A stretch of DNA of 35,177 nucleotides. Source: a virus. Taxonomy: Duplodnaviria > Heunggongvirae > Uroviricota > Caudoviricetes. The stretch lies in IMG/VR virus record IMGVR_UViG_2690316321_000006; one strand, written 5' to 3'. The position numbers and the translations under genes were made by a program. The first letter of the stretch is position 1; the number at the start of each line of letters is the position of its first letter. Shown piece by piece: positions 1 to 35,177 of this stretch. The notes beneath the pieces were generated by a model, which was given only the letters and a program-made list of their open reading frames with translations, was not told where the DNA came from and did no database searches.

Positions 1-516
1 ATGAAATTTAAAAAATGTCTTCTGCCTGTGGCAATGTTAGCGTCATTCACTCTGGCAGGATGCCAGTCAAATGCTGATGATCATGCCGCCGATGTTTATC
101 AAACCGATCAACTGAATACCAAACAAGAAACTAAAACCGTTAATATTATTTCCATTCTTCCCGCAAAAGTTGCCGTAGACAACGCCCAAAATAAACGGAA
201 CGCACAAGCCTTCGGCGCGCTTATTGGCGCTGTCGCTGGCGGTGTTATCGGCCACAACGTCGGGTCTGGCAGCAATTCCGGAACGACGGCAGGTGCAGTT
301 GGCGGCGGAGCTGTTGGCGCAGCAGCGGGTTCTATGGTGAATGATAAAACCTTAGTGGAAGGTGTTTCTTTAACATATAAGGAAGGCACCAAAGTGTATA
401 CCTCCACCCAGGTGGGTAAAGAGTGCCAGTTTACGACAGGTTTAGCCGTTGTTATTACCACGACGTATAACGAAACGCGTATTCAGCCAAATACCAAATG
501 TCCTGAAAAGAGCTAA
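1..516 (+). CDS. Outer-membrane lipoprotein with glycine-zipper segment (YcfJ / 17-kDa-antigen-like)
   Basis: ATG at 1; signal peptide with lipobox LAGC; Gly/Ala-rich zipper (GALIGAVAGGVIGHNVG); ordinary GC; probably host flank, possibly a moron. Confidence 0.6.
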   Translation: MKFKKCLLPVAMLASFTLAGCQSNADDHAADVYQTDQLNTKQETKTVNIISILPAKVAVDNAQNKRNAQAFGALIGAVAGGVIGHNVGSGSNSGTTAGAVGGGAVGAAAGSMVNDKTLVEGVSLTYKEGTKVYTSTQVGKECQFTTGLAVVITTTYNETRIQPNTKCPEKS

Positions 517-531
517 TAATCAGGAGGAGTC

Positions 532-1071
532 ATGAAGAAAGTTTTTCTTTGCGCCATCTTAGCCTCCTTAAGCTATCCGGCTATCGCCTCATCATTGCAG
601 GATCAACTCTCGGCTGTCGCAGAAGCGGAACAGCAAGGTAAAAATGAAGAGCAAAGGCAGCATGACGAATGGGTCGCGGAGCGCAACAGGGAAATCCAGC
701 AAGAGAAGCAACGTCGCGCAAATGCCCAGGCCGCCGCTAACAAAAGAGCGGCAACGGCAGCAGCAAATAAGAAAGCTCGTCAGGATAAACTAGACGCCGA
801 AGCCACTGCGGACAAAAAACGCGATCAAAGTTATGAAGATGAGCTACGCAGCTTAGAGATTCAGAAACAAAAACTGGCGCTGGCGAAAGAAGAAGCCCGC
901 GTTAAGCGAGAAAACGAATTTATCGATCAGGAACTGAAGCACAAAGCTGCGCAAACCGATGTGGTGCAATCTGAAGCTGACGCAAACAGAAATATGACTG
1001 AAGGCGGTCGCGATCTGATGAAAAGCGTGGGTAAAGCAGAAGAGAACAAATCGGACAGCTGGTTTAACTAA
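532..1071 (+). CDS. Secreted charged coiled-coil protein of unknown function
   Basis: ATG at 532 preceded by AGGAGG at 522-527; N-terminal signal peptide (AIASS); K/E/Q/A-rich body; followed by a rho-independent terminator. Confidence 0.55.
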   Translation: MKKVFLCAILASLSYPAIASSLQDQLSAVAEAEQQGKNEEQRQHDEWVAERNREIQQEKQRRANAQAAANKRAATAAANKKARQDKLDAEATADKKRDQSYEDELRSLEIQKQKLALAKEEARVKRENEFIDQELKHKAAQTDVVQSEADANRNMTEGGRDLMKSVGKAEENKSDSWFN

Positions 1072-2992: not shown

Positions 2993-4773
2993 CCATACAC
3001 CTTAATTAAGCCCCGCCCGCTGTTCGCGCCGCCAGAGCTTTCCAGTGGTTCATTGATAATGGCGTGCATGCACGCCCATGCCAGATCCGCGTGGGAGACT
3101 TCTTCCGAACGGCTGGCCTCGAAGGTCACCTGACGCCCGGACGGGGTCAGGGTTTTGCGGATCGCCATAAATGCCTGCGCCAGATCCGTCCATCCAGCGT
3201 CAAACTCCAGTCGGTGTTTACGGACAACGTCCAGCGTTTTCAGCACCAGACGCTGTTTCACTTCCGGGGAATAAGAGAATGCCTGCACTGCCGGGAAGAA
3301 CTGTTTCACCAGTTGATGCACGCCGTGGCCGATACCGGTCACGTCAATGCCGATGTACGTCACGTTATAGCGCTCGGTAATTTTGCGGATATTCTCCGCC
3401 TGCGCCGCGAAGTCCATCCCGTGCCACTGGTGCTTTTCAATTACCCGAAACTTGCCGCCCTCAATGACCGGCGGCGCGACCACCACGCATCCGGCGCTGT
3501 CGCCGCTTAACGCCGGATCGTAGCCCACCCATACCGAGCGTTCGCCGAGCGGACGCAGGGCAAACGGCTTGTAGTCGTCCCAGACTTCCCAGCTATCGAC
3601 CATGCAACCCTGCAACATGCTGAGCGGGAATACCGATGCGGTATCGTCAATAAACTGGCACATAAACAGGTTGGCGAACTCTTCCGGCGAGTTCTCCAGC
3701 CTGAGTTGCTCAAGGTCGAACAGGTCATAACCCTGATTGATGGCATCCTCAACGGTGACGATTTGCCGCCACTGGCCGTCTTCACACAACCGCCCTGCCG
3801 ACAGCGCCCGATGGCTGATATCCAGTCGAATCTGTTCGCTCTTCGGCCTGCCCTTGTTGAACAGTTGCCCTGTCCAGAACTTATAGGCTTCATGGGTGAT
3901 GCTGGACGGCGTGGAGAAGTAGGTTTGCCGCCAGCGCTTCTGGCTGGCCATCCCCGCCGCGTTACGGCGCAGTTCCAGAAAGCGGTGTATCCAGAAGTAT
4001 TCATCCAGATACAGGTTGCCATGATAGGTCTGGGCGGTGCGGGCATTAGTGCCGAGAAAATACATCCGGCTATCATTATGCGGCAGGTGAATGACTTCGC
4101 CTTTCAGCTCAACATCCGCCTCACGAGCAAAATCGACAATGTACTGGCGGAACTGGTGCGCCTGCGCTTTGGAAGCAGAGAGAAAGATCTGGTTGCGCCC
4201 ACTTTCCACCGCATCCATAAACCCTTCCCGCCCAAAGAACATCGTCGCCCCAATCTGGCGCGACTTGTTGATATCGCGGATACGGTGTTCCAGTCCGGCG
4301 CGGTACCAGTGTTTCTGGTGCGGATACAGCCCGTCCAGAAATAGCTGTTTCAGCTTCTCCGCCTGCTCCTCGCTGATATGGTTGGTTTCCGGCTGTCTGC
4401 GCGGCCCGGCGTTACGCTTCGCAAGAGCAGGATTCAGGTCGACCTCATTGCCTCCCTGCTGATAGCGTTCAACCCTTGCCCCGCGCTCCATCTGCCGCCA
4501 GAGCAAATCGATCTCCTTAAAATCCTTCCCCTCTTTATTTTCCTTCACCGTGAGCTGGATCAGACGCGCCTCGGTCACCGCCGTCACCCGCTCCAGCGGG
4601 GCGGATTCATCCCAGCCGTCGCGCCGCTTCCAGCTATGCAGCGTGGTAACTTTCACCCCCAACAGTTCGGCGATCCGCGCGATGCGAAAACCCTGCCAGT
4701 ACAGATAGCGGGCTTTGCGGCGTGGATCTTCATCCTGAAGGGCAAGCAGATGTTTTTCGATGTCTGGCGGCAT
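2989..4773 (-). CDS. P: Terminase large (ATPase) subunit (P2 gpP-like)
   Basis: 594-aa ORF, ATG at 4773; N-terminus MPPDIEKHLLALQ... typical of P2-family terminase ATPase; divergent from O. Confidence 0.9.
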   Translation of the reverse strand: MPPDIEKHLLALQDEDPRRKARYLYWQGFRIARIAELLGVKVTTLHSWKRRDGWDESAPLERVTAVTEARLIQLTVKENKEGKDFKEIDLLWRQMERGARVERYQQGGNEVDLNPALAKRNAGPRRQPETNHISEEQAEKLKQLFLDGLYPHQKHWYRAGLEHRIRDINKSRQIGATMFFGREGFMDAVESGRNQIFLSASKAQAHQFRQYIVDFAREADVELKGEVIHLPHNDSRMYFLGTNARTAQTYHGNLYLDEYFWIHRFLELRRNAAGMASQKRWRQTYFSTPSSITHEAYKFWTGQLFNKGRPKSEQIRLDISHRALSAGRLCEDGQWRQIVTVEDAINQGYDLFDLEQLRLENSPEEFANLFMCQFIDDTASVFPLSMLQGCMVDSWEVWDDYKPFALRPLGERSVWVGYDPALSGDSAGCVVVAPPVIEGGKFRVIEKHQWHGMDFAAQAENIRKITERYNVTYIGIDVTGIGHGVHQLVKQFFPAVQAFSYSPEVKQRLVLKTLDVVRKHRLEFDAGWTDLAQAFMAIRKTLTPSGRQVTFEASRSEEVSHADLAWACMHAIINEPLESSGGANSGRGLIKVYG

Positions 4774-8341: not shown

Positions 8342-8377
8342 TGAGTTTGAAGGTAGTGTTTGCCTGATAGCCATAAT

Positions 8378-8400
8378 AGCCCGATTCGTCGGGCTGTTTT
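8378..8400. terminator. Bidirectional hairpin terminator between convergent accessory genes
   Basis: agcccga-ttcg-tcgggct followed by gtttt; separates 8105-8341 (+) from 8431-9084 (-). Confidence 0.55.
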
Positions 8401-8430
8401 CATTTGACGCTGACTTACTCTATTCTACAT

Positions 8431-9084
8431 TTAGTCAAGAGCCGACCAATACTCAGACTCTAACCAAGAGCACAGCATTTCAACATTTCTGATAGCTTCG
8501 AATATTTTCTCTTTAGTCGGGGATATTGTAGGTGGGAATAACCACGATTTTTCTTCCTGTTCGGAAGCCAAAAGTAGCTCACACTCCTGAATAAAGTATG
8601 GGCGAGGATATTTTTCCAAGTCATTTTTTGAGTGAGAAATATTAATTGAGGTAAGTTCCTCAGGATGCTGGACACGATTTCTCACCAAGGGAATTTGTTC
8701 AATTATTTCCAAATTTGCAGGACATTTTGCCATTTCCAACTCAATTTTGTTGAAAATTTCACGATAGCCATTAAACCAACCCTTCTTGAAATTTATATCA
8801 GATTTCACGCTATGATATCCTAAGCGATCTACCCACGCCTTCAGGTACAACTGAAGAGAAGACGAAAGCATCGATAATGCATGGTGCCCACAGGTTTCTA
8901 ATCCCGACTTTGCATCTAACCATTCATCTAAAAAAGCTGGTTCATCACTCTCACCATACGGCTGAATATAAGGTTCCACTTCATTCTCAATATCATTCAT
9001 GATGTTAACAAATGGTGCAGCAGCCGTTTCATAGAAATAAGTAACGAATCTTGTGCGCTCTTTAAGAAAAAATTCAATATCCAC
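8431..9084 (-). CDS. Hypothetical 217-aa accessory protein with R-x4-H motif (possible HEPN-like toxin or effector)
   Basis: AT-rich; the track start at 9102 is TTG, the preferred start is GTG at 9084 directly after AGGAGG; contains LVRNRVQHPEEL (R-x4-H); lies downstream of an RHH gene on the same strand. Confidence 0.5.
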   Translation of the reverse strand: MDIEFFLKERTRFVTYFYETAAAPFVNIMNDIENEVEPYIQPYGESDEPAFLDEWLDAKSGLETCGHHALSMLSSSLQLYLKAWVDRLGYHSVKSDINFKKGWFNGYREIFNKIELEMAKCPANLEIIEQIPLVRNRVQHPEELTSINISHSKNDLEKYPRPYFIQECELLLASEQEEKSWLFPPTISPTKEKIFEAIRNVEMLCSWLESEYWSALD

Positions 9085-9185
9085 AACACCTCCTACACAC
9101 AATGTTTAAGTTAATCAGTGCATATCGACTAATCTGGGCTGAACAAATAATCCTAACTTCTTAGCGCTGCTTGATATCTCCGTAA

Positions 9186-9356
9186 TTATCCTTTGGGTTC
9201 AATACCTCGTGACTGAAGTTCCTTACGCAAAACGCGTTTTATCCATGTTGCGAGAGAGGTATCTCCATCTTTACGAGCCTGTTCTTCAAGCTGCTTTCTA
9301 AATTCATGAGCAAGACGAAGTTGGTACTGATCTGTTTTAGCCTTTTCACTTGACAT
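9186..9356 (-). CDS. Ribbon-helix-helix (Arc/CopG-like) DNA-binding protein; putative antitoxin or autoregulator (56 aa, absent from the ORF track)
   Basis: Minus-strand ATG at 9356 to TAA at 9186; translation MSSEKAKTDQYQLRLAHEFRKQLEEQARKDGDTSLATWIKRVLRKELQSRGIEPKG has the beta-strand then two-helix RHH pattern; palindromic GTAATTAC operators overlap its start. Confidence 0.55.
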   Translation of the reverse strand: MSSEKAKTDQYQLRLAHEFRKQLEEQARKDGDTSLATWIKRVLRKELQSRGIEPKG

Positions 9357-9408
9357 TGTAATTACAAAATCCTTAGAATGATGTAGTTGTAATTACATCG
9401 CAATTACG
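9357..9408. promoter_or_regulatory. Operator/promoter region with repeated palindrome TGTAATTACA
   Basis: TGTAATTACA at 9357-9366 and 9388-9397 (31 bp apart) plus a degenerate copy GCAATTACG at 9400-9408; sits between divergent RHH gene and the 9498 ORF. Confidence 0.5.
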
Positions 9409-9497
9409 TGATGTTTTGCAACCCTTAAACGAACGAAGCCCGCAGGTGCTACCAACACCAACGGGCCTCTGACCACAACATTAAAGAGGCTAATGCT

Positions 9498-9704
9498 ATG
9501 GCTACCGCTAATAGTAACATACGCGCACATTCAAAGCTCTACACCTTCCTGAACGCCCGTTCCAACCGCCTGCTGCGCGAGATCCAGCCCCTGCGTCTGG
9601 TGTCTGTACTGGCAACAACTGAAATCGAGGCTCGCGACCTGCTGGCGGGTTTCCCGCTGGTGTTCGTCTCCTGCAAACCGCTGGAGGTGCGCCATGGTGC
9701 CTGA
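9498..9704 (+). CDS. Small protein resembling Icd-like (host cell division inhibitor-like) proteins of P4-type elements
   Basis: ATG at 9498 with AAGAGG 8 nt upstream; 68 aa; motif pattern recalled from P4-like island small ORFs; weak. Confidence 0.4.
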   Translation: MATANSNIRAHSKLYTFLNARSNRLLREIQPLRLVSVLATTEIEARDLLAGFPLVFVSCKPLEVRHGA

Positions 9705-10014
9705 AACCAATATTCTGTCCTCTGAACTGGCGGACGCGATCCGCAAGATGGATATTTCACACCTGAACGCCGACGATACTCTGCTACTGGCCAACAGCAG
9801 CGAAGAGTGCTACGCCGGACTATGTCACGGCCTGCATTTTCTGGGTAAAACCTTCGTCTCCTTTGCCGACAGCAACGTGCTGGAATTCTCCGCTGAAAGC
9901 CTGTGCCAGCTAGGGCATGGCCTGTCGGCTACCGCGCTTCTGCTTCCGGCGCTGATCCAGCTCCAGAAGTCCGCTGAACTGAAAATCATCAATACCGACA
10001 GCGACGAGGCATAG
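9694..10014 (+). CDS. Hypothetical protein (106 aa), accessory
   Basis: ATG at 9694 with GGAGG 6 nt upstream; overlaps the end of the previous ORF (coupled). Confidence 0.45.
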   Translation: MVPETNILSSELADAIRKMDISHLNADDTLLLANSSEECYAGLCHGLHFLGKTFVSFADSNVLEFSAESLCQLGHGLSATALLLPALIQLQKSAELKIINTDSDEA

Positions 10015-10128: not shown

Positions 10129-10332
10129 ATGATTGTCTATAGCCTGCAAAACGAAACGCTCGATCAGCTCTGCTGGCGCATCTTCGGGCGCACTGCCGGG
10201 ATTGTCGAACAGCTTTACCAGAACAACCCGCGCCTGTGCGAACTGCCGCTGCGCCTGCCACACGGTACGGCGGTTAACGTACCGGAACAGGCTCCCGCCA
10301 CCGCACGTCAACGAATCAACCTGTGGGACTGA
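10129..10332 (+). CDS. X: Tail protein X (P2 gpX-like)
   Basis: 67 aa, same size as P2 X; ...LPHGTAVNVPEQAPATARQRINLWD closely matches the recalled P2 X C-terminus. Confidence 0.85.
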   Translation: MIVYSLQNETLDQLCWRIFGRTAGIVEQLYQNNPRLCELPLRLPHGTAVNVPEQAPATARQRINLWD

Positions 10333-12158: not shown

Positions 12159-12591
12159 ACTGCTGGCCGCCAGCGTCCCGCATCTACAGCAGAACCCGGA
12201 CACGCTGCGGGTCTTTATCAATAAGGGCCGGATCGTCGCCACCGCAGGGCGCAGCACCAGTTTTGAATACCAGTACACGCTGGAACTGTTGATCACCGAC
12301 TACGCCGCCGATCCCGATACACTGATGGTGCCGCTGGTCGGCTGGATGTCGCTTCACCAGCAGGAAGCCTTCGCCAATAGCGACCTGCGCGAGCAGGCGT
12401 TTCAGTTTGAGGCCGAAGCCATCGACCATCAGAGCTACGATATCAGCATCAAACTGGCGCTGACCGAGCGCGTCATTGTTCGCCAGCGCGACGGTAGTCT
12501 GGAAGCAAAGCACTGTAACGACCAGCAGCCAGAAAGCGGTTACAACGGCTGGGAAATCGCCTGTCGCGGTGAAACGATTGTGAGCACCTGA
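12133..12591 (+). CDS. R: Tail completion protein (P2 gpR-like)
   Basis: 152 aa; ATG at 12133 with AGGAGC upstream; P2 order. Confidence 0.8.
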   Translation: MHKAQLIRELLAASVPHLQQNPDTLRVFINKGRIVATAGRSTSFEYQYTLELLITDYAADPDTLMVPLVGWMSLHQQEAFANSDLREQAFQFEAEAIDHQSYDISIKLALTERVIVRQRDGSLEAKHCNDQQPESGYNGWEIACRGETIVST

Positions 12592-13037
12592 TGAGCGACG
12601 ACCTGCAACAACTCCACCGCTGGGCCGATGGCCTGCTCGCAAAGCTCTCCCCGGCAAGCCGAACCCAACTGGCACGGGAAATCGCCCGCAGCCTGCGCCA
12701 GTCGCAAAGCCAGCGAATAACCGCGCAGAAAAACCCGGACGGCTCACCGTTCGCCCCCCGTAAGCTCCAGCTACGCAGTAAAAAAGGAAAGATCCGCCGC
12801 CAGATGTTCCGTAAGCTGCGTACCGCACGCTATATGAAAGGGAAAGGCGATGGGCAGGGAGCAACCATTTCGTTTCTCAGCAGCGTTCGACATATGGCTG
12901 CCGTTCATCAGTATGGCCTGCGCGATCGGGTAAATCGCTACGGGTTGGAGGTGGATTACGCACAAAGGCAGTTGCTGGGGTTTTCGGCGGAGGATGTGCG
13001 AAAAATAGAGGCGCTAATCGTTCACTTCCTGACTTGA
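12591..13037 (+). CDS. S: Tail completion / virion morphogenesis protein (P2 gpS-like)
   Basis: 148 aa; one-nucleotide TGATG overlap with R. Confidence 0.8.
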   Translation: MSDDLQQLHRWADGLLAKLSPASRTQLAREIARSLRQSQSQRITAQKNPDGSPFAPRKLQLRSKKGKIRRQMFRKLRTARYMKGKGDGQGATISFLSSVRHMAAVHQYGLRDRVNRYGLEVDYAQRQLLGFSAEDVRKIEALIVHFLT

Positions 13038-13109: not shown

Positions 13110-13373
13110 ATGAATACGTTAAGCGCCAAACATAAAAAAACCTTACAAGCTGTTTTTTCTACGCCAACACCTGTCACGCTGGAATGGCGAAAAATAGAAG
13201 CCTTATTTATTGCTTTGGGGGCTATTGCTACGGAAGGAAACGGTTCCCGCGTCAGGTTTGAAATTAATCAGGTTGTGGCTTCATTTCATCGTCCACACCC
13301 GGAAAAAGAAGCGAAAGCCTATCAGGTTCGCGATGCCAGAACATTCCTTGAAGCTGTAGGGGTAACACCATGA
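13110..13373 (+). CDS. hicA: HicA-family mRNA-interferase toxin
   Basis: 87 aa; conserved ...RFEINQVVASFHRPHPEKE... region typical of HicA; followed by overlapping HicB. Confidence 0.7.
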   Translation: MNTLSAKHKKTLQAVFSTPTPVTLEWRKIEALFIALGAIATEGNGSRVRFEINQVVASFHRPHPEKEAKAYQVRDARTFLEAVGVTP

Positions 13374-13705
13374 TGAATACCATGACATATAGAGGCTATG
13401 CCGCAAAAATTGAATACAGCGATGAAGATCAATGCATTGTTGGTCACGTTGCAGGCATTCGGGATGTCATTGGCTTTCATGCCGATAATGTTGCCGATCT
13501 GCGTAAAGCGTTTGAAGAGGCGGTAGACGACTATCTGGCTTACTGCGAGGAACGGGGCCGGGAGCCGTTGCGTCCGGCCAGCGGAAAAATCAGCCTGCGT
13601 ATTCCACCTGAAATTCACTCTGCCATTAACGTTGCGGCAGAAGTCTCCGGTAAAAGCGTTAACCAGTGGATTAACGATACACTGATGAAGGCTGCGCACG
13701 GTTAA
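13370..13705 (+). CDS. hicB: HicB-family antitoxin
   Basis: 111 aa; ATGA overlap with hicA; HicB-like N-terminal domain plus C-terminal RHH-like segment (ISLRIPPEIHSAINVAAEVSGKSVNQWINDTL). Confidence 0.75.
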   Translation: MMNTMTYRGYAAKIEYSDEDQCIVGHVAGIRDVIGFHADNVADLRKAFEEAVDDYLAYCEERGREPLRPASGKISLRIPPEIHSAINVAAEVSGKSVNQWINDTLMKAAHG

Positions 13706-13811: not shown

Positions 13812-14411
13812 ATGAGCGACGCAAACCACCCAGCCAACCTCGCCGAGCTGCACCGGCGCATTGAAAACCTGATCCGTACCGGCACCGTTGAAGAGGTGAA
13901 GGGCGATCGAGTACGCATTCACACTGGTGAACTGACCACCAACTGGATACCGTGGCTGACGCTGCGCGCCGGTGATGCCCGGACGTGGTGGCGACCATCA
14001 ACAGGCGAACAGGTGTTACTGCTCTGTTTAAGCGGTGAGTTAACCACCGCCGTGGCGCTTCCTGCCATTTACTCTGACGCCAACCCCGCCCCGCTGCTGG
14101 ATGAACAGGTTCACCATAGCGTTTACCCCGATGGTGCGGTGATTGAATATGATCCGCGCTCCAGCGCGTTAAAAGCCACCGGCATCAAGACCGCACTGGT
14201 CGAAGCCAGCACCCGCGTCACGCTGGATACACCGCTCGTCGTCTGCACCCAGCATCTGGAAACCGCCACGCTGTCGGTTAAAAAAGGCGGCACGCTTAAA
14301 GGCACTTACACCCACAGCAGCGGCAGTTTTACCTCCAACGGCGTCACCGTCCATACCCACACGCACACAGGCGTAGAGCGCGGCGGTAGCAATACCGGAG
14401 GGCCGCAGTAA
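13812..14411 (+). CDS. V: Baseplate spike / assembly protein V (P2 gpV-like)
   Basis: 199 aa; first gene after the late dyad; P2 order. Confidence 0.85.
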   Translation: MSDANHPANLAELHRRIENLIRTGTVEEVKGDRVRIHTGELTTNWIPWLTLRAGDARTWWRPSTGEQVLLLCLSGELTTAVALPAIYSDANPAPLLDEQVHHSVYPDGAVIEYDPRSSALKATGIKTALVEASTRVTLDTPLVVCTQHLETATLSVKKGGTLKGTYTHSSGSFTSNGVTVHTHTHTGVERGGSNTGGPQ

Positions 14412-25573: not shown

Positions 25574-26676
25574 CGATGTTAAACGCACTCTTAAACGCCC
25601 AGCCGCAACCGGAGTACAGCGTGGTGCTGAACGGTAAGGACATTACGCGGAATCTGGACAACCGCTTAATCAGCCTGCGTATCACCGACAACCGGGGCTT
25701 TGAGGCCGACGAACTGCAGCTCGAACTGGACGACAGCGACGGCCTGCTGGCGTTTCCGGCAAAGGGCGAAAAGCTAACGGTTTCTCTGGGCTGGAAGGGT
25801 GACGGCGTGATGCACCAGAATGTCTTCACAGTGGACGAACTGGAGCACAGCGGCGCACCGGACGTACTCAGCCTCCGCGCCCGCAGCGCCGATTTCCGCG
25901 ATTCGCTGAACGTTAAACGGGAACAGAGCTACCATGATGTGACGCTGGGCGCGATTGTGCAAACCGTGGCGGCACGTCATAAGCTGGAATCAACCGTCAG
26001 CGGCGAGCTGGCTGGGATCGCCATTGAGCACGTTGACCAGACTAACGAGTCTGATGCGTCCTTCCTAACCCGGCTGGCGCAAATGCACGGCGCTATCGCC
26101 TGCGTGAAAAATGATGCTCTGCTGCTGATGCCGACAGGTTCCGGTAAAAGCGCCAGCGGCAAGCCGCTGCCGGTCGCAACCATTAACCGCGAGGACGGCG
26201 ACAGCCACCGGTTCAGCATCGCGGACAGGGAAGCCTATACCGGCGTAACGGCCTACTGGCTGGATACGCGGCAGGCTAAAAAGCAGTCAACTGACGTGAA
26301 GCGCAAGACACGGAAAAACCTTCCGCAAACGCAACCAACAGAATCGCCGACGTCAGACACCTCATTCAACGCCGATAACGTGATGGTCGGCGAAGAGGGA
26401 AATATCAAGGTGCTGCGCCACACCTATGCCAACAAAAATAACGCCTACAGAGCGGCAGAAAGCGCGTGGGAGCTATTACAGCGAGGCGCGGCAACGTTCA
26501 GCCTGAATCTTGCGCGTGGACGGCCCGATTTGTTCCCGGAATTGCCGGTGCCGGTGCAGGTGAAGGGGTTTAAGGCTGAGATTGATGGCACCGCGTGGGT
26601 GATTACGCGGTGCGTGCATACGTTGGATGGCGGTACTGGTTATGTCACCGCATTAGAAATGGAATTAAGTTTATAG
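25570..26676 (+). CDS. D: Tail protein D (P2 gpD-like)
   Basis: 368 aa; ATGA overlap with U; last late gene as in P2. Confidence 0.85.
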   Translation: MTMLNALLNAQPQPEYSVVLNGKDITRNLDNRLISLRITDNRGFEADELQLELDDSDGLLAFPAKGEKLTVSLGWKGDGVMHQNVFTVDELEHSGAPDVLSLRARSADFRDSLNVKREQSYHDVTLGAIVQTVAARHKLESTVSGELAGIAIEHVDQTNESDASFLTRLAQMHGAIACVKNDALLLMPTGSGKSASGKPLPVATINREDGDSHRFSIADREAYTGVTAYWLDTRQAKKQSTDVKRKTRKNLPQTQPTESPTSDTSFNADNVMVGEEGNIKVLRHTYANKNNAYRAAESAWELLQRGAATFSLNLARGRPDLFPELPVPVQVKGFKAEIDGTAWVITRCVHTLDGGTGYVTALEMELSL

Positions 26677-27927
26677 TAATCCTAAATGAACCATAATAGC
26701 CATTAAGATCATTCCACCACCTAAGGCTGTCGGAATCCAGCATAAGCATTGAAAGAAAAGAAGGTAACGATTTAACATGACCTGATTTTTGTCTAAATTA
26801 TCCTTTGCATTGCATACTAATTTTTTCAAATCTTCTGTATAACCTACAGATTTTTTCACTAATGGGGAAAATATAATATCTTTAGCATCACAAATCATCC
26901 TAAACTGTGTGTATTGACTTCTTACAATAAAAAACATAATTATCGACGTGAGCAATACACCTAAAAAAACCACTAACATTTCCGGCAGGGTATTTAATTT
27001 TATCATGCCAAAAGTAGCAACCAAAGAAACAGGAATACCTAAAAGCTTAGCTATCATGTCTGACATTATTTTTGAAAAACGCTCAGCTAAATTAGCTTCT
27101 GCCTCTGCCACTTCCTTTCTTACTTTATGAAATGAAAAACCACTAAGATATACACCGAGGTTATTATGGTATAGTTTTAGAAATTCATCCCACTCACAGA
27201 ATAAAAAATGAAACTGTTTCTTTACATCGATTGATTCAAGAAAATCGACCACCGTATTAATGAAAATCCCTTTTCGCTCAAAATAATTATCATCCGTTAT
27301 AGCTTTTTTTTCATCAGAAAAAGATTCGATGATTTTTAAATCCTTAATACCTGTTAAAAGAAGTGAATAATCAACATTAGTTTCAATAATTAAAGGTAAT
27401 GACTTAGCATTAGTATTTTTCAAGAAAACTAACTTATGGCATACATCATCACTTTTACTATTGCTGTAGTGTGCAACTTTTGATAGACATAAAATAAAAT
27501 CACAAAGATTCTTTAAAACAGATAGTTCTGGTATTTTTGCTAATCCCTCAACCATTCCTTCATTAAAATAAAAATCTTCCTCAACCAAGTAAAAAGACTT
27601 TCTTAAAATACCTCTATTTAACATCGGAGACTTTTGAATTAGATCTTTAATATCGATAAAAAATGACTCACTGGCTCCAGTTGATATAGAGATTGTCAGT
27701 GTTATTGATGTTCCTTTAGCGGGAAGGCTATCATCAACATCTATATCCACATCATCAATGACAATCTCTTCAATTTCTCCCCACGCGGTATGAGGTTGCA
27801 AAGAAACTAAGAGTTCATATATATGAGCATCATAAGAAATAGTTGCTGAAAAACGATTATTAATAGCATCAAATTTAGGACGCCCTACATATCTGAAAAG
27901 CTCAACAACCGTTTCAAAACATGACAT
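26671..27927 (-). CDS. Accessory protein with large soluble N-terminal domain and 2-3 C-terminal transmembrane helices (candidate membrane effector); third gene of AT-rich operon
   Basis: Preferred ATG at 27927 (track start 27936 is TTG); strongly AT-rich; hydrophobic segments LVVFLGVLLTSIIMFFIV and LLFFQCLCWIPTALGGGMILMAIMVHLGLL at the C-terminus; its stop overlaps the D stop convergently by 6 bp. Confidence 0.6.
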   Translation of the reverse strand: MSCFETVVELFRYVGRPKFDAINNRFSATISYDAHIYELLVSLQPHTAWGEIEEIVIDDVDIDVDDSLPAKGTSITLTISISTGASESFFIDIKDLIQKSPMLNRGILRKSFYLVEEDFYFNEGMVEGLAKIPELSVLKNLCDFILCLSKVAHYSNSKSDDVCHKLVFLKNTNAKSLPLIIETNVDYSLLLTGIKDLKIIESFSDEKKAITDDNYFERKGIFINTVVDFLESIDVKKQFHFLFCEWDEFLKLYHNNLGVYLSGFSFHKVRKEVAEAEANLAERFSKIMSDMIAKLLGIPVSLVATFGMIKLNTLPEMLVVFLGVLLTSIIMFFIVRSQYTQFRMICDAKDIIFSPLVKKSVGYTEDLKKLVCNAKDNLDKNQVMLNRYLLFFQCLCWIPTALGGGMILMAIMVHLGLL

Positions 27928-27985
27928 ATTAAGCAACCTTATTTTTCGCTATTTCTTTCTTTTATTAACTCATCAAGCAATTGAG

Positions 27986-29086
27986 CTATTTCACTTTTTT
28001 CTCAGGAGTAATCCGAGTAAAAGTTAAATGTCCAGTTTTCTTATTATAGCATATCTCATTATCAAGAGTATTGCCTAGTAAACTAGATTTAAACTCAAAA
28101 TTAACATTATCACTTGTATATTTAATATTTCTGTTTTTCTTAACTACTGATTTGCTTACCCTAAATTCCACAGGCACACGAATACTTTCACTATTCAAAT
28201 GAGCATATAATTCTTCTGACAATTTATCTTTAATGTCATCTTCTAAATTAACCATATGCTTCGCTGCCATCTCACTAACAACAGAAAGCTTAGCTGAAAT
28301 GTTATTCTCAGAACAATCGAATAAATACTCAATAATTTCATTTTTAAATTTACGGGCATTATCCTTTAATTCTTGATGATTTCTGAAGAAGTTAAAAGAT
28401 TCATTAATTAAATTACTCGTAGCTTTAGTTGATGTATTACCTTTATCACAACCTAAGGCAGTAATGAAATACCCTGAAGTTGTCTGGTTAGAACTGGGAC
28501 TAACAAAACTTAAATAATTAACATCCTGTCTTTCATTCTCATCAGCGGAAATATATTTATCATACAAATCATAGTTTATTCGTGCCGCCTGATTTAGTTT
28601 TGCCAGATCAAGATGCTCTAACTCCTTTGGTTCTAATTTATCACTAATAACTATACCTTCCTTTTGCTTAATCATTGCAATAAGAAAGTAACGCACGGAT
28701 TTACTGATATAATCAGCAAAAAGAAGTAATCCTCCTGATGCAGCAGGTCGATCCTTTGCCTCAATATATAACTGATGCATAACATTTTTTGATAATCCTA
28801 TAAACAATTCATCGTCTAACTTCTTGGATGTATCATTCCGATATTTATCAAATGCCGCTGGAAAAGGCCCCCTACGTGTTTCATCTAAATTAAATATACC
28901 ATAATGCGAGCTATTAGATTTTTTACCATACAATGCGGCTATACTGGACACTAGTTTAATTACGATTTCATTATTTCGGTCAAGAACCGTATCACGGCGA
29001 CTATATGGTTTTGAGTGATCGAAATCTTTATGTTGCTCTTTTATCAACCTATGAACAACCACGCACCCTAATGAAATATCAGACAT
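27986..29086 (-). CDS. NdpA/YejK-like nucleoid-associated-protein-family member (accessory); second gene of AT-rich operon
   Basis: 366 aa; collinear similarity to E. coli YejK as recalled from memory (MSDISLGCVVVHRLIKEQ vs MSLDINQIALHQLIKRDEQ; ASGGLLLFADY vs ADGGFVLFCHY; YLSFV vs YLTFL); RBS TGAGG upstream. Confidence 0.65.
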   Translation of the reverse strand: MSDISLGCVVVHRLIKEQHKDFDHSKPYSRRDTVLDRNNEIVIKLVSSIAALYGKKSNSSHYGIFNLDETRRGPFPAAFDKYRNDTSKKLDDELFIGLSKNVMHQLYIEAKDRPAASGGLLLFADYISKSVRYFLIAMIKQKEGIVISDKLEPKELEHLDLAKLNQAARINYDLYDKYISADENERQDVNYLSFVSPSSNQTTSGYFITALGCDKGNTSTKATSNLINESFNFFRNHQELKDNARKFKNEIIEYLFDCSENNISAKLSVVSEMAAKHMVNLEDDIKDKLSEELYAHLNSESIRVPVEFRVSKSVVKKNRNIKYTSDNVNFEFKSSLLGNTLDNEICYNKKTGHLTFTRITPEKKVK

Positions 29087-29100
29087 ATAACCTCACAATC

Positions 29101-29673
29101 CTATGGTAAATAAAAATCTTTCGCTTTATTTTCTAAATCAGTCCATCTACTGCTAATATTCTTTTCCTTACAAACAAGAAAAGCCTGATACCCTAAAAAC
29201 TCTTTCGTTTTCTTTAAATTATCTTCAGTAACATGACTCTTTTCTTCATTGTTGTTTTTCCATCCACAGAAATATATTCTGTCTGCTTCTTCAACATCCC
29301 TGACATGCACAGCAATATCAGTATATTTTGCCTTATTCTTAACAGTAACCGATGGAGGGATTTTCCCATCAAAATCTTCAAAAAACTTACTTGTTCTAAA
29401 TGGATTGGCAGGGTCATATTTCAAACCTAGAGCCTTGCATAATTCTTTATAAGTCTCACTTCCCAGATTAGGATTTATGACGAATCCCTTCTCGACTTTT
29501 AGACGAAAGCAAAGATTAGCGCCTAATGCTCCGAAAAGAAGCTCAAACGGTTTTCCATCAATAAAGAAAAATACATCAAAATGTAAATTATTGTGTCTGT
29601 ATGGGAATTTAACCCTATCCAATTTTTGCTCTGTCATGTTCCTGTAAAGAGCAACCAGATTATTCAACTTCAT
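29101..29673 (-). CDS. Hypothetical 190-aa protein; first gene of AT-rich accessory operon
   Basis: ATG at 29673 with GGAGG 5 nt upstream; AT-rich; no recognisable motif; 14-bp gap to the next gene. Confidence 0.55.
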   Translation of the reverse strand: MKLNNLVALYRNMTEQKLDRVKFPYRHNNLHFDVFFFIDGKPFELLFGALGANLCFRLKVEKGFVINPNLGSETYKELCKALGLKYDPANPFRTSKFFEDFDGKIPPSVTVKNKAKYTDIAVHVRDVEEADRIYFCGWKNNNEEKSHVTEDNLKKTKEFLGYQAFLVCKEKNISSRWTDLENKAKDFYLP

Positions 29674-29713
29674 TTTGCCTCCATACAGACAATAACCAAA
29701 TTCATTCTACTCG

Positions 29714-30052
29714 TTATCCCTTAGCTGCTTTCCCTACTCCCGGTTGCGCAAGCGCAGCGCTAACCGTGTCAAGGGTGGACTGGTGTTCTGGCGTAGCAGA
29801 ACGATAGTTTTCCACCAACACACTCTCTTTACTGGACAACGTAACTACAGGCGTGCGGTTGCCTGTTAGAACATACAGAACATCAACTCCCGCTGCCGCT
29901 ATGCCAGCAAGATAGTCACTGTCCGGCTTACGCAACCCATTCTCATAGTTGCTTTGTGCGTTTTTCTTCACGCCCCCAAGTTGTCCAAAGCCGTCTTGAT
30001 CAAGTCCAAGTCGGATACGTTCTTCCTTCAAACGGATGCCAAATTCTTTCAT
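29714..30052 (-). CDS. HTH (XRE/CI-like) transcriptional repressor, putative immunity repressor
   Basis: 112 aa; N-terminal helix-turn-helix; divergent from the small regulator / ogr / primase operon, as for P2 C versus cox. Confidence 0.7.
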   Translation of the reverse strand: MKEFGIRLKEERIRLGLDQDGFGQLGGVKKNAQSNYENGLRKPDSDYLAGIAAAGVDVLYVLTGNRTPVVTLSSKESVLVENYRSATPEHQSTLDTVSAALAQPGVGKAAKG

Positions 30053-33977: not shown

Positions 33978-35177
33978 TTACGGGCGGTATTGCTTGATCC
34001 ACCCATCAACCATATCCGCCCACTGCTGCAACATATCACGGCGCTGCTCTGCGTATTCCGCTTTGTTATAAACGGCTCTGACGCTTCTTTCCTCGTGCGC
34101 GAGGCATTTTTCTATCCAGTCGGAATTAAACCCCGCCTCATGCAATAACGTCGAGGCCGTTCGGCGCATATCGTGAACGGAAAACGACGCCAGCCTGATC
34201 CCCCGTTCCTGCGCCTGCTTAACCGTAAGATTAATGACCCGGTTTAAGGTCGCCGCCGACATGGTCTTATGCGACGACTGATTGCATGAAGGCAAAACCC
34301 AATCACTGCTTCCTGCGCACATTTTCAGGGCAATCAGAATGTCCTGTGCCTGCCGGGACAGATAAACATTATGATCCCGTGATCCCTTCATCCGGCTGGC
34401 GTCAATCGTCCAAAGGCAGGCATTAAAATTAACCTCACCCCACGGCGCGTTCAGCAGTTCACTTTTACGCACCATCGTTAATAAAACCAATTTAATGGCC
34501 AGCTTGATGGTGGGTAATGTACCCGTTTGTTCAAGCTGATTGAAAAACCAGCCTATCTCCTCTGGCTTGAGCGCCCTGTCGCGCGCTTCGAATGTCGCAA
34601 TTGAAGCCGGTAAAACCTCTTCGGCAGGATTGGGGTAATAGTCGCCGTGAAGCGCGGCGAACTTAAATACCGCACTAACGATATTGCGAACCTGAATCGC
34701 CGTCGCTGGCGCACCACGCGCTTTTATCTTGTCGCAATACTCACGTAGGAGAGAGGGGGTTATCTCTGACAGCAGCTTGCGCCCCCATACTGGGGTGATG
34801 TCTCTGTCGATAATGCTTTGCTTCATCGCCCTTGTGCTGTCCGCCAGCCGGGTGTGTTTCATGTAGCTGACGGTAAAATCGTGGAGTGTCTTTTCTTCTT
34901 TTCGCTTTGTTTTACCGTCACGCTTCTCTCCAGCGGGCGATATTCCTGCATTTACGCGTTTTTTAGCTTCCACTAATTTTTCGCGCGCCTGCGCCAGAGA
35001 AATACCGTCACCATAGCGACCAATCGTTAACGTTTCACGACGACCATTGATTCGATAGTCATAGCGAAACGTCACCAATCCCTTGGGAGATACGGTTACA
35101 TACAGCCCATCACGGTCTGCAACTTTATAAAGTTTTTCCCGCGCTTTGAGGTTTTTCAGCTTGGTATCGGTCAGCAT
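33978..35177 (-). CDS. int: Tyrosine integrase, P4/CP4-57 family (arm-binding N-terminal domain plus catalytic domain)
   Basis: 399-aa ORF whose ATG is the last three bases of the window; N-terminus MLTDTKLKNLKA...DGLYVTVSPKG typical of P4-type integrases; C-terminal R...H..R...Y catalytic region; attachment site expected just right of the window. Confidence 0.9.
   Translation of the reverse strand: MLTDTKLKNLKAREKLYKVADRDGLYVTVSPKGLVTFRYDYRINGRRETLTIGRYGDGISLAQAREKLVEAKKRVNAGISPAGEKRDGKTKRKEEKTLHDFTVSYMKHTRLADSTRAMKQSIIDRDITPVWGRKLLSEITPSLLREYCDKIKARGAPATAIQVRNIVSAVFKFAALHGDYYPNPAEEVLPASIATFEARDRALKPEEIGWFFNQLEQTGTLPTIKLAIKLVLLTMVRKSELLNAPWGEVNFNACLWTIDASRMKGSRDHNVYLSRQAQDILIALKMCAGSSDWVLPSCNQSSHKTMSAATLNRVINLTVKQAQERGIRLASFSVHDMRRTASTLLHEAGFNSDWIEKCLAHEERSVRAVYNKAEYAEQRRDMLQQWADMVDGWIKQYRP

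What the first reader, a model, noticed from the sequence alone, without database searches (positions are those of the whole stretch)
8431..9408. RHH gene plus 217-aa R-x4-H protein with palindromic operators: candidate toxin-antitoxin or abortive-infection pair
A 56-aa ribbon-helix-helix ORF (9356 to 9186, minus strand, not in the ORF track) precedes an AT-rich 217-aa gene on the same strand. The RHH start codon overlaps a perfect palindrome TGTAATTACA that recurs 31 bp away (9357-9366, 9388-9397), the pattern of an autoregulated operator. The larger protein has no family I can name but carries LVRNRVQHPEEL, which fits the HEPN R-x4-6-H signature. An RHH partner for a HEPN-like protein is atypical compared with the usual MNT partner.
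Basis: partly seen in the sequence, partly recalled or inferred. Interest (0 to 1): 0.6.

Follow-up and report, generated by a model that had tools for sequence, protein, structure and literature searches.

The report
Solo HEPN-like gene behind Arc-type repressor
A P2-like prophage carries, in a known hotspot for defence genes, an uncharacterised probable RNase placed behind a small repressor with well-conserved operators, but the two genes are not a matched toxin-antitoxin pair.

Summary
They are a 56-aa ribbon-helix-helix (RHH) gene (9186-9356, minus), a 217-aa gene (8431-9084, minus, GTG start), two exact TGTAATTACA palindromes (9357-9366, 9388-9397) and LVRNRVQHPEEL.

The pairing does not hold up. 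About 45 other loci of the family have no RHH neighbour and no recurrent neighbour at all, and many are integron cassettes. The RHH family, with the same two operators, occurs in P4-like satellites, genomic islands and sister prophages without this gene.

The RHH's constant partners are a divergent promoter, a SymR-like antisense RNA and an Icd-like ORF. At 56 aa it has no toxin-binding tail.

Best reading: a stand-alone HEPN-type abortive-infection candidate, probably transcribed from the RHH's self-repressed promoter. It is a new member of a known kind, of moderate interest.

The parts
8431..9084 (-). 217-aa gene (GTG start): stand-alone HEPN-like protein, a putative metal-independent RNase and the cargo of the slot.
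8665..8682 (-). Codons for R135-N-R-V-Q-H140, the Rx4H motif with a polar residue (N) after R.
   Evidence: R135, N136, Q139, H140 and P141 are invariant in 28 sequences. In 67 sequences of 26-52% identity, R135 is invariant and N136 and H140 are at least 90% conserved. The motif lies at the C-terminal end of helix 125-139 in the model, which is where the HEPN motif sits (PMC3710099).
9085..9185 (-). 101-nt spacer between the RHH stop and the 217-aa start, with the Shine-Dalgarno AGGAGG at 9094-9089. It has no terminator, so co-transcription is likely.
   Evidence: The terminator scan finds nothing here. The spacer RNA is less structured than all 200 shuffles, z +2.5.
9186..9356 (-). 56-aa ribbon-helix-helix (Arc-type) repressor gene.
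9357..9366 (.). Proximal operator palindrome TGTAATTACA. It abuts the RHH ATG and lies in the spacer of the + strand promoter.
9388..9397 (.). Distal operator palindrome TGTAATTACA. It overlaps the -10 (TGTAAT) of the putative RHH promoter and lies just downstream of the -10 of the + strand promoter, where its transcript should start.
   Evidence: An imperfect third half-site, GCAATTAC, lies at 9399-9406 (repeat D3).
9350..9379 (+). Sigma-70-type promoter TTGACA-18-TAGAAT driving the divergent ORFs. Its -35 is the complement of the RHH codons ATGTCAA.
   Evidence: It matches 11 of 12 positions. TTGACA and a TAnnAT -10 are conserved in the homologous loci read.
9392..9421 (-). Putative RHH promoter: -35 TTGCAA (9421-9416), an 18-nt spacer and -10 TGTAAT (9397-9392). 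This is inferred and was not called by the scan.
   Evidence: GTTGCA and TGTAAT are conserved at 17-18 nt spacing in the alignment of 13 loci. The -10 lacks the canonical A at position 2, so it is probably weak.
9432..9503 (-). SymR-like cis-antisense RNA. It has two hairpins, the second a terminator followed by a T-tract. Its predicted 5' end is 3 nt beyond the start codon of the opposite ORF.
   Evidence: It scores 34.9 bits against Rfam symR over the full model, E 2e-5, below the gathering score of 61. The consensus fold has 27 pairs, 11 with compensatory changes. 95% of cells are paired, against 38-43% when the partners are slid, and 0 of 500 shuffles reach this. Many G-U pairs fix the strand.
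9498..9704 (+). 68-aa ORF divergent from the RHH gene, borderline Icd-like (cell-division inhibitor family). It is the first gene of the operon the operators control.
   Evidence: It scores 24.1 bits against NCBIfam phage_ICD_like, just under the cutoff of 25. The position-equivalent gene in the E. coli satellite L050 scores 84 bits. It matches phrog_20855. BLASTP between the two proteins finds nothing.
9694..10014 (+). 106-aa ORF of unknown function (phrog_19484), conserved with the 68-aa ORF in sister prophages and, fused, in the Pantoea and Trabulsiella islands.
8375..8398 (.). G+C-rich hairpin with a T-run on the + strand, at the 3' end of the 217-aa gene and after the 91-aa + strand ORF. 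It can terminate convergent transcripts from both sides.
   Evidence: The stretch 8344-8403 is also shared with E. coli prophage L048.
8344..9462 (.). Variable, AT-rich cassette of the gpL-gpX slot. It is replaced by other cargo in E. coli prophages that are 94-97% identical on both sides.
   Evidence: The hotspot downstream of gpL is described in PMC13586616.

Best explanation
The window is a P2-like prophage. Between the head-completion gene gpL and the tail gene gpX lies a swappable cargo slot, which is the published 'downstream of GpL' defence hotspot.

In this prophage the slot holds a stand-alone 217-aa protein of a large uncharacterised family. I interpret it as a divergent HEPN-fold, metal-independent RNase with active-site motif R135-N-x-x-Q-H140. 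Elsewhere the gene travels alone, often as a promoterless integron cassette.

Here it sits 101 nt downstream of a 56-aa Arc-type RHH repressor with no terminator between them. It is therefore most likely transcribed from the RHH promoter at a low level, because that promoter is self-repressed.

The RHH is not its antitoxin. It is the repressor of a portable switch that is also found in P4-like satellites and genomic islands. Two operators 31 bp apart cover both the RHH promoter and a strong divergent promoter. That promoter drives an Icd-like ORF, which is additionally opposed by a SymR-like antisense RNA.

By analogy with single-gene HEPN Abi proteins (AbiD, AbiF, AbiJ, AbiU2), the 217-aa protein would stay inactive in the lysogen. 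On infection by another phage it would be activated, presumably as a dimer with a composite active site, and would cleave RNA and abort the infection.

Shown:
- the anatomy of the locus;
- conservation of the motif;
- conservation and co-variation of the operators;
- the lack of any conserved pairing;
- the swapping of cargo in the slot;
- the covariation in the antisense RNA.

Inferred:
- the HEPN fold;
- RNase activity;
- a defence role;
- co-transcription with the RHH gene;
- RHH binding to the operators.
For: Setting:
- gpN, gpM, gpL and gpX are identified by Pfam.
- The cassette is a 38-41% GC island in a prophage of about 58% GC.
- E. coli prophages L048 and L049 are 94-97% identical up to 8342-8344 and from 9427/9463 onward. 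In between they carry RelE/ParE+HTH plus a 177-aa membrane protein, or a Doc toxin, each with its own RHH variant.
- PMC13586616 places 16% of P2 defence systems downstream of GpL.

HEPN reading:
- R135 is invariant and N136 and H140 are at least 90% conserved across 67 sequences of 26-52% identity.
- The motif is at the end of a helix and followed by a loop, with N after R, as defined for HEPN.
- Four of 28 members give weak Pfam HEPN_RiboL-PSP hits, best E 9e-4. In P0084 the hit covers residues 80-146, the stretch where the motif lies in the family alignment.
- Family member P0227 is fused to a HEPN_AbiU2 domain at E 6e-18, and P0258 carries a second RNxxxH.

Solo, mobile, defence-linked:
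- No neighbour recurs in 37 loci.
- Neighbours include RM methylases, Mrr, SIR2/HerA, CBASS cyclase with NucC, Gabija-like OLD+UvrD, SocA and Fic.
- Relatives lie in attC-flanked cassette arrays.

The RHH belongs to another module:
- The same two palindromes are found in Trabulsiella, Pantoea and Erwinia loci that were retrieved by protein identity only.
- Operator sequence changes with the RHH beta-strand: TGTAATTACA, GGTAATTACC or TGGTATATACCA.
- The divergent TTGACA-18-TAGAAT promoter is conserved.
- In the satellites the RHH faces a primase operon and has no gene following it on its own strand.
- L059 has a 96% identical RHH but no 217-aa gene.

Co-transcription: the spacer is unstructured and has no terminator.
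Against: - Foldseek against the PDB gives no significant match (best E 0.75).
- Profile searches of PDB sequences find no HEPN protein.
- hhalign against the AbiU2 part of P0227 and the second half of P0258 is insignificant.
- No Pfam HEPN model reaches its curated cutoff, and there is no PADLOC hit.
- Many neighbours of family members are housekeeping genes, so enrichment in defence islands is suggestive and was not quantified.
- No promoter for the RHH gene or the 217-aa gene passed the consensus scan. The proposed -10, TGTAAT, lacks the canonical A at position 2.
- No expression, toxicity or phage data exist.
- All three sister prophage slots, and two Pantoea islands, have cargo on the same strand behind an RHH. 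Some functional coupling between the RHH and its cargo therefore cannot be excluded.
Confidence: 0.5

Rival explanations
1. The RHH and the 217-aa protein form a cognate type II toxin-antitoxin or abortive-infection pair. The RHH neutralises the HEPN-like toxin by direct binding and autoregulates the operon through the palindromes.
For: Both genes are on the same strand, with the small DNA-binding gene first, palindromic operators at its start and no terminator between them. RHH antitoxins (VapB12, MazE9, CopA_SO) are among the closest folds. In the sister slots an RHH variant also precedes toxin-like cargo.
Against: The pairing is seen only in this prophage lineage (L056 is the same element). 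None of 37 other loci of the 217-aa family has an RHH or any recurrent neighbour. The RHH family occurs without this gene in every other locus examined. The RHH is 56 aa with 7 residues after helix 2, so it lacks the C-terminal toxin-binding extension typical of RHH antitoxins. In L049 the Doc cargo is preceded by a 62-aa ORF that overlaps it by 4 nt in the usual antitoxin position, between it and the RHH. The genes are 101 nt apart and do not overlap.
Confidence: 0.12
2. The 217-aa protein is not an RNase or a toxin. It would be a helical protein with some other role, such as an anti-defence factor, a regulator or a nucleotide-binding protein. On this view the conserved R-N-x-x-Q-H serves a different function and the HEPN resemblance reflects a generic helical bundle.
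For: Foldseek, PDB profile searches and hhalign give nothing significant. No curated HEPN model passes its threshold. The gene is widespread as a solo gene without any antitoxin, and many of its neighbours are housekeeping genes.
Confidence: 0.2
3. The RHH serves only the divergent module of Icd-like ORF and antisense RNA. That module is a satellite-derived regulatory or type I toxin-antitoxin-like cassette. The 217-aa gene would be an unrelated passenger that is silent or has its own unrecognised promoter, so the RHH has no functional link to it.
For: The constant partners of the RHH are the operators, the divergent promoter, the antisense RNA and the Icd-like ORF. In the satellites nothing follows the RHH on its own strand. 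Integron-derived cassettes are often poorly expressed (bioRxiv 10.1101/2024.07.02.601686).
Against: There is no terminator and unusually little structure in the 101-nt spacer. No promoter-like site lies in the spacer. The gene has a strong Shine-Dalgarno sequence. Sister slots and the Pantoea islands L042 and L043 also place cargo directly behind the RHH on the same strand.
Confidence: 0.15

Closest known systems
Single-gene HEPN abortive-infection proteins (AbiD/AbiF, AbiJ, AbiU2; the RiboL-PSP-HEPN family of Anantharaman et al. 2013, PMC3710099)
   Same: It is a stand-alone protein with a conserved Rx4H motif and a polar residue after R, placed at the end of a helix. It is carried on prophages and other mobile elements, next to RM and other defence genes. 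Some members give weak Pfam hits to HEPN_RiboL-PSP, and one member is fused to HEPN_AbiU2.
   Different: No curated HEPN model reaches threshold. The protein has a long N-terminal helix pair and a conserved insert of about 50 residues (H151, D155, P162, F164) between the motif and the last helix. No activity or phage phenotype is known.
HEPN-MNT type II/VII toxin-antitoxin systems (for example SO_3166/SO_3165, PDB 5yep; 7ae2)
   Different: No nucleotidyltransferase (MNT) partner is present here or in any of the 37 loci. The protein is about 80 residues longer. Sequence identity is 7-8%.
Arc and Mnt repressors of the phage P22 immI region, and the RHH (MetJ/Arc/CopG) superfamily
   Same: It is a 53-56-aa beta-alpha-alpha protein with no extra domain. 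Tandem palindromic operators lie over two overlapping divergent promoters. One of these promoters is its own, and the other drives a gene harmful to the host. The comparison with P22 Arc/Pant/Pmnt is from my own knowledge.
   Different: The operator sequence is different (TGTAATTACA). The divergent gene is Icd-like rather than ant. An antisense RNA adds a second layer of control. Pfam Arc is below threshold (E 0.038).
SymR/SymE type I toxin-antitoxin system of E. coli (Rfam RF01809)
   Same: The RNA has the same two-hairpin architecture and shares the GUGUUGG...GCAC terminator loop. It is antisense to the ribosome-binding site and start codon of the opposite ORF. Its predicted 5' end lies 3 nt beyond that start codon, which from memory is also the geometry of SymR.
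   Different: It scores 34.9 bits, below the gathering score of 61. The target ORF is Icd-like and is not SymE. No LexA box is evident. The module is embedded in an RHH-controlled switch.
[quoted passage not shown] 2022 (PMC9122126)
   Same: The position is the same, between gpL and the tail and lysis genes. Nearly identical prophages carry different cargo there.
   Different: This cargo is not recognised by PADLOC. DefenseFinder could not be run here. The slot here also contains a regulatory module shared with P4-like satellites, although that paper reports that P2 and P4 almost never exchange defence genes.
[quoted passage not shown]
   Same: Relatives of the 217-aa gene are single-ORF cassettes flanked by attC-like sites, in arrays from Aeromonas and from metagenomes. 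They are small, solo and HEPN-like.
   Different: Identity with Esos could not be tested because no sequence was available. The copy in this window has no intact attC site.

Membership tests
HEPN superfamily | A conserved Rx4-6H motif with a polar residue (N, D or H) immediately after R | tested here: met
   The motif is R135-N136-R-V-Q139-H140. R is invariant, and N and H are at least 90% conserved in 67 sequences of 26-52% identity. The definition comes from PMC3710099.
HEPN superfamily | The motif lies at the end of core helix 3 and the start of the loop to helix 4 of a four-helix up-down bundle | tested here: met
   In the AF2 model (pLDDT 84.9) the helices are 3-33, 52-87, 125-139 and 191-216, and the motif lies at 135-140, the end of helix 125-139. 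This rests on a model, and the coordinates could not be inspected.
HEPN superfamily | Significant structural similarity to solved HEPN domains | tested here: inconclusive
HEPN superfamily | A match to a curated HEPN sequence model | tested here: not met
   No Pfam or NCBIfam hit reaches its cutoff. HEPN_RiboL-PSP is hit only sub-threshold, in 4 of 28 members (best E 9e-4; 15.8 bits in P0084 against a cutoff of 28.4). PDB profile searches and hhalign are negative.
HEPN superfamily | Metal-independent endoribonuclease activity that depends on the R and H residues | not testable with these tools
   This needs biochemistry.
Type II toxin-antitoxin pair (RHH antitoxin plus toxin) | The two genes co-occur as neighbours across genomes | tested here: not met
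   None of 37 loci of the 217-aa family has an RHH or any recurrent neighbour. The RHH loci lack the 217-aa gene.
Type II toxin-antitoxin pair (RHH antitoxin plus toxin) | The antitoxin has a toxin-binding extension beyond the DNA-binding RHH domain | tested here: not met
   The protein is 56 aa. Helix 2 ends at residue 49, leaving only 7 residues.
Type II toxin-antitoxin pair (RHH antitoxin plus toxin) | Translationally coupled or closely spaced genes in one autoregulated operon | tested here: inconclusive
   The gap is 101 nt with no terminator and an unstructured spacer. Operators are present at the promoter. The transcript itself was not observed.
Type II toxin-antitoxin pair (RHH antitoxin plus toxin) | The toxin is toxic and is neutralised by the antitoxin | not testable with these tools
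   This needs expression experiments.
HEPN-MNT system | An adjacent minimal nucleotidyltransferase gene | tested here: not met
   No nucleotidyltransferase domain is found in the neighbouring ORFs of the window. No neighbour recurs in 37 loci.
Ribbon-helix-helix (Arc/MetJ/CopG) repressors | Beta-alpha-alpha topology and similarity to solved RHH proteins | tested here: met
Ribbon-helix-helix (Arc/MetJ/CopG) repressors | Binds repeated or palindromic operators at its own promoter | tested here: inconclusive
   Two palindromes are conserved in position, and their sequence co-varies with the beta-strand in three specificity groups. Binding itself was not tested.
SymR antisense RNA (Rfam RF01809) | A score at or above the Rfam gathering threshold | tested here: not met
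   The score is 34.9 bits against a threshold of 61, at E 2e-5.
SymR antisense RNA (Rfam RF01809) | A conserved two-hairpin structure, antisense to the translation start of the opposite ORF | tested here: met
   There are 27 pairs, 11 of them compensatory, and 95% of cells are paired. No shuffle of 500 reaches this. The RNA spans 9503-9432, opposite the ATG at 9498.
SymR antisense RNA (Rfam RF01809) | The target gene encodes SymE | tested here: not met
   The 68-aa ORF has no Pfam hit, including SymE_toxin, and is borderline Icd-like.
[quoted passage not shown] | Lies between gpL and the following core gene, with cargo that differs among closely related prophages | tested here: met
   The hotspot is described in PMC13586616.
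Integron gene cassette | A single ORF bounded by attC recombination sites within an array of cassettes on the same strand | tested here: inconclusive
   By eye this holds for relatives L065-L068, L037, L001, L005, L008 and L064. They have GCGTTAT... upstream, and TAACAA, an imperfect palindrome and GCGTTAT downstream. No attC model was run. The copy in the window has no intact attC.

The most novel reading that the evidence does not exclude
The RHH, its two operators, the SymR-like antisense RNA and the Icd-like ORF would form a portable three-layer switch. Its home is the early-operon control region of P4-like satellites, and a P2-like helper-type phage has captured it inside its late-gene region. 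There it would gate the hotspot cargo, so that de-repression on induction or superinfection switches on a division inhibitor and a previously unrecognised HEPN RNase family together. This would be a module shared between satellites and P2-like phages, even though those elements are reported almost never to exchange defence genes.
Probability: 0.15. Interest if true: 0.7.

Novelty: new member of a known kind. Interest (0 to 1): 0.42.

Why it matters
If the 217-aa family is an active HEPN RNase, about 600 sequence clusters would gain a predicted function and a testable active site (R135, N136, H140). These clusters are found in prophages, plasmids, defence islands and integron cassettes, and are now labelled 'hypothetical'.

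The locus also shows how a promoterless cassette gene can be made expressible by landing behind a self-repressed regulator in a phage hotspot.

The conserved switch of RHH, operators, antisense RNA and Icd-like ORF deserves attention in its own right. It appears to control the early operon of many P4-like satellites, and it extends the SymR type of antisense control beyond symE.

For genome annotation the practical lesson is a caution: a small RHH gene followed by a larger gene is not by itself a toxin-antitoxin pair.

Tried and rejected
- DNA and tblastn searches of INPHARED phages with the locus and the 217-aa protein found nothing.
- Complete E. coli genomes lack the 217-aa gene.
- Eight plasmids carry distant copies, all annotated as hypothetical.
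- Pfam, NCBIfam and PADLOC give no family for the 217-aa protein.
- PDB sequence-profile searches with a 28-sequence and a 67-sequence profile returned only chance hits: TCTP, and an 'addiction module antidote' at E 0.06.
- Foldseek against the PDB found no significant match.
- The AlphaFold DB library was unavailable.
- hhalign of the family profile against the AbiU2 half of P0227 and the second half of P0258 was insignificant. In the former, the best alignment does place the two R...H helices together.
- A conserved partner gene was sought by clustering all ORFs within 2.5 kb of 37 loci, and none was found.
- A PDB profile search with the RHH alignment hit only designed helical repeats.
- BLASTP between the 68-aa ORF and the annotated Icd-like protein of L050 found nothing, so the Icd-like label rests on a borderline HMM score.
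- I tried to test identity with the 'Bxe_C0808' HEPN family (PMC3710099) and with the integron defence gene 'Esos'. No sequences could be obtained, because the supplements lacked them and the record was not in the collections.
- A LexA box as the meaning of the palindromes was rejected by inspection: the palindrome is TGT-N4-ACA, whereas a LexA box is CTGT-N8-ACAG.
- The 223-aa TTG start at 9102 was rejected in favour of the GTG at 9084.
Full report
**Observation**

- On the minus strand a 56-aa ORF runs from 9356 to 9186.
- A larger ORF ends at 8431. Homologues of the larger protein start at MDIEFF. This fixes its start at the GTG at 9084, with AGGAGG at 9094-9089, and gives 217 aa.
- LVRNRVQHPEEL is residues 133-144.
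- TGTAATTACA occurs exactly twice in the 35-kb window, at 9357-9366 and 9388-9397.
- None of 300 locally shuffled windows contains any 10-nt palindrome repeated within 60 bp.
- Both genes lie in a 38-41% GC island inside DNA of about 58% GC.

**Setting**

The window is a P2-like prophage.
- Pfam identifies the capsid, small terminase, head-completion (gpL, ending at 7989) and tail X (10129-10332) genes on either side.
- The closest capsids in phage records are Burkholderia P2-like phages at 58% identity.
- E. coli prophages in strains L725 and GMF054 are 94-97% identical to the window up to 8342-8344 and again from 9463 or 9427 onward. In between they differ completely.
- L725 carries a RelE/ParE+HTH pair and a 177-aa membrane protein. 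GMF054 carries a Doc toxin preceded by a 62-aa ORF.
- A 2026 survey of 1,511 P2-like prophages describes this position, 'downstream of GpL', as a defence hotspot holding 16% of P2 defence systems (PMC13586616).
- The finding therefore lies in a known cargo slot.

**The 217-aa protein: family and fold**

- It has no Pfam, NCBIfam or PADLOC family, and only a PHROG of unknown function.
- It is nevertheless a real and large family: 226 clusters at 90% identity and 609 at 50% identity. Members occur in Marinobacter, Aeromonas, Vibrio, Pectobacterium, Pseudomonas, Nitrospirota and others, and all are annotated as hypothetical.
- In 67 sequences of 26-52% identity the only invariant residue is R135. 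N136 and H140 are at least 90% conserved.
- The AF2 model is confident (pLDDT 84.9, pTM 0.84) and all-helical. The motif lies at the C-terminal end of helix 125-139.
- Anantharaman et al. place the HEPN Rx4-6H motif exactly there, and note that the residue after R is typically N, D or H (PMC3710099).
- Four of 28 members give sub-threshold hits to Pfam HEPN_RiboL-PSP. In P0084 the hit covers residues 80-146, the stretch where the motif lies in the family alignment.
- One distant member is fused to a HEPN_AbiU2 domain (E 6e-18), and another to a second RNxxxH region.
- Against this, Foldseek finds nothing significant, and PDB profile searches and hhalign are negative.
- I rate the HEPN-RNase assignment at about 0.6.

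**The 217-aa protein: context elsewhere**

- In 35 genome loci plus Aeromonas and Pectobacterium loci, no upstream small RHH ORF is present. Clustering all neighbouring ORFs finds no recurrent partner.
- Neighbours include type I and II methylases, Mrr, SIR2/HerA, a CBASS cyclase with NucC, Gabija-like OLD+UvrD, SocA and Fic. Many others are housekeeping genes.
- Several close relatives sit in arrays of small ORFs on the same strand. These ORFs are separated by structured repeats that start at TAAC and end in GCGTTAT, which is the look of integron attC sites.
- Integron cassettes are reported to be rich in small single-gene defences, including one (Esos) with only a HEPN-like domain. I could not test identity with it.
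- The copy in this window has no intact attC site.

**The RHH and its operators**

- The 56-aa protein matches the PHROG Arc-like family (E 3.5e-6). It has 76 homologue clusters, mainly in Enterobacterales.
- Loci retrieved by protein identity alone (Trabulsiella, Pantoea, Erwinia) keep both TGTAATTACA copies exactly, 30-31 bp apart, with the second abutting the ATG. The spacer between the two copies diverges.
- RHH variants with a different beta-strand have different palindromes at the same positions. These are GGTAATTACC in E. coli, Xenorhabdus and Gilliamella elements, and TGGTATATACCA in Rosenbergiella. L725 and GMF054 have other repeats.
- This co-variation is good comparative evidence that the RHH reads these sites.

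**What the operators control**

- The complement of the RHH codons ATGTCAA is a perfect -35, TTGACA. Eighteen bases on lies TAGAAT, giving a + strand promoter that matches 11 of 12 positions (9350-9379). It is conserved in the homologous loci.
- One palindrome sits in this promoter's spacer. The other lies just downstream of its -10, where the transcript should start.
- The distal palindrome also overlaps the -10 (TGTAAT) of a conserved TTGCAA-N17/18-TGTAAT element on the RHH strand. That element is probably the RHH's own, weaker, promoter.
- The operators therefore most likely repress two divergent promoters, as Arc does in the P22 immI region. That comparison is from my own knowledge.

**The divergent module**

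- The + strand promoter leads to a 68-aa ORF (9498-9704) and a 106-aa ORF (9694-10014).
- The 68-aa ORF is borderline Icd-like, at 24.1 bits against a cutoff of 25. The position-equivalent gene of an E. coli satellite scores 84 bits. BLASTP between the two proteins finds nothing.
- Opposite the 68-aa ORF's start, on the RHH strand, Rfam in E-value mode finds a full-length SymR-like RNA (9503-9432, 34.9 bits, E 2e-5, below the gathering score of 61).
- An alignment of 12 distinct loci folds into two hairpins with 27 pairs. Eleven of these pairs show compensatory changes, and 95% of cells are paired, against 38-43% when the partners are slid. No shuffle of 500 reaches this. Many G-U pairs assign the structure to the RHH strand.
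- The second hairpin is followed by a T-tract and then by the conserved TTGCA -35.
- In Gilliamella, Xenorhabdus, Rosenbergiella, E. coli and IMG/VR elements, this RHH-operator-RNA unit heads an operon of small genes ending in a primase. On its other side it faces AlpA and a P4-type integrase. That is the control region of P4-like satellites.

**Are the two genes a pair?**

The evidence says no, at least not in the toxin-antitoxin sense.
- The 217-aa family never has an RHH neighbour elsewhere.
- The RHH family occurs without this gene everywhere except this prophage lineage. L056 is the same element.
- L059 has a 96% identical RHH and the same 68-aa ORF, but HigBA-like cargo in place of the 217-aa gene.
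- The RHH has only seven residues after helix 2 and therefore no toxin-binding tail.
- In GMF054 the Doc cargo is preceded by a 62-aa ORF that overlaps it by 4 nt in the usual antitoxin position, between it and the RHH.

The two genes probably do share a transcript. The 101-nt spacer has no terminator and is less structured than all 200 shuffles. It has no promoter-like site, and cassette-derived genes usually lack promoters.

**Mechanism proposed**

- In the lysogen the RHH binds both operators. This holds the divergent Icd-like operon off and keeps its own transcript, including the 217-aa gene, at a low steady level. This step is inferred.
- The 217-aa protein is a latent HEPN RNase. Infection by another phage would activate it, and it would cleave RNA and abort the infection, as proposed for solo HEPN Abi proteins. 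This step is inferred by analogy.
- The trigger and the substrate are unknown.

**Novelty and verdict**

- The hotspot, the RHH operator logic and HEPN Abi genes are all known kinds of thing.
- What is new is a large HEPN-like family without any curated model, seen here as prophage cargo.
- Also new is the conserved RHH/antisense-RNA/Icd-like switch shared by satellites and a P2-like phage.

Noticed in passing
window 9432-9503 (minus strand), opposite the start of the ORF at 9498-9704: A SymR-like cis-antisense RNA with two hairpins, the second a terminator. It scores 34.9 bits against Rfam symR, below the gathering score. The structure is backed by 11 compensatory pairs across 12 loci. With the borderline Icd-like ORF it resembles a type I toxin-antitoxin or translational-control unit, which is conserved in P4-like satellites.
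   Followed up: yes
window 13110-13373 (+) and 13370-13705 (+), between gpS (12591-13037) and gpV (13812-14411): An 87-aa ORF overlaps by 4 nt a 111-aa protein that matches Pfam HicB (E 2.7e-18). This looks like a genuine HicAB-like type II toxin-antitoxin pair in a second cargo slot of the same prophage. The 87-aa partner gave no NCBIfam hit.
   Followed up: partly
window 26671-30052, minus strand: A block of four genes: a 421-aa protein with no family, a 366-aa NA37 nucleoid-associated protein, a 190-aa DUF6037 protein and a 112-aa HTH_3 repressor. It lies next to the Toprim replication gene (30695-33349) and the integrase (33978-35177). None of the three larger proteins has a PADLOC hit (the repressor was not scanned). 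This may be another accessory or defence slot.
   Followed up: partly
L065-L068, L037, L001, L005, L008, L064 (relatives of the 217-aa gene): The gene is flanked by attC-like sites: GCGTTATGCATATAGGTxGTxAAT upstream, and TAACAA, an imperfect palindrome and GCGTTAT downstream. It sits in arrays of small ORFs on the same strand, so the family circulates as integron cassettes. This explains both its solo status and its AT-rich composition.
   Followed up: partly
L048 (E. coli L725) 3142-3903 and L049 (E. coli GMF054) 3148-3936: Sister prophages carry divergent RHH variants (43% identity) with different operator repeats. Behind them on the same strand is other cargo: a 177-aa protein with an N-terminal membrane helix, or a 62-aa ORF plus a Doc toxin. 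An RHH followed by cargo seems to be a recurring cassette layout in this slot.
   Followed up: partly
window 8375-8398: A strong + strand terminator-like hairpin lies right after the 91-aa ORF that follows gpL. Transcripts of the late head operon may therefore stop before gpX. The lysis and tail genes might then depend on the RHH-controlled + strand promoter at 9350-9379, or on another promoter.
   Followed up: no
L040-L044 (Trabulsiella, Pantoea) divergent ORFs of 116-120 aa: In these chromosomal islands the first few codons of the Icd-like ORF are fused to a homologue of the window's 106-aa ORF. The body of the Icd-like gene has been lost, while the antisense RNA, the operators and the RHH are retained.
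   Followed up: partly
window 1-1071: Two + strand ORFs lie at the left edge of the window. One is a glycine-zipper/TraT-like lipoprotein candidate (1-516) and the other a DUF5384 protein (532-1071). They sit upstream of the portal and terminase genes and may be further prophage accessory genes.
   Followed up: no
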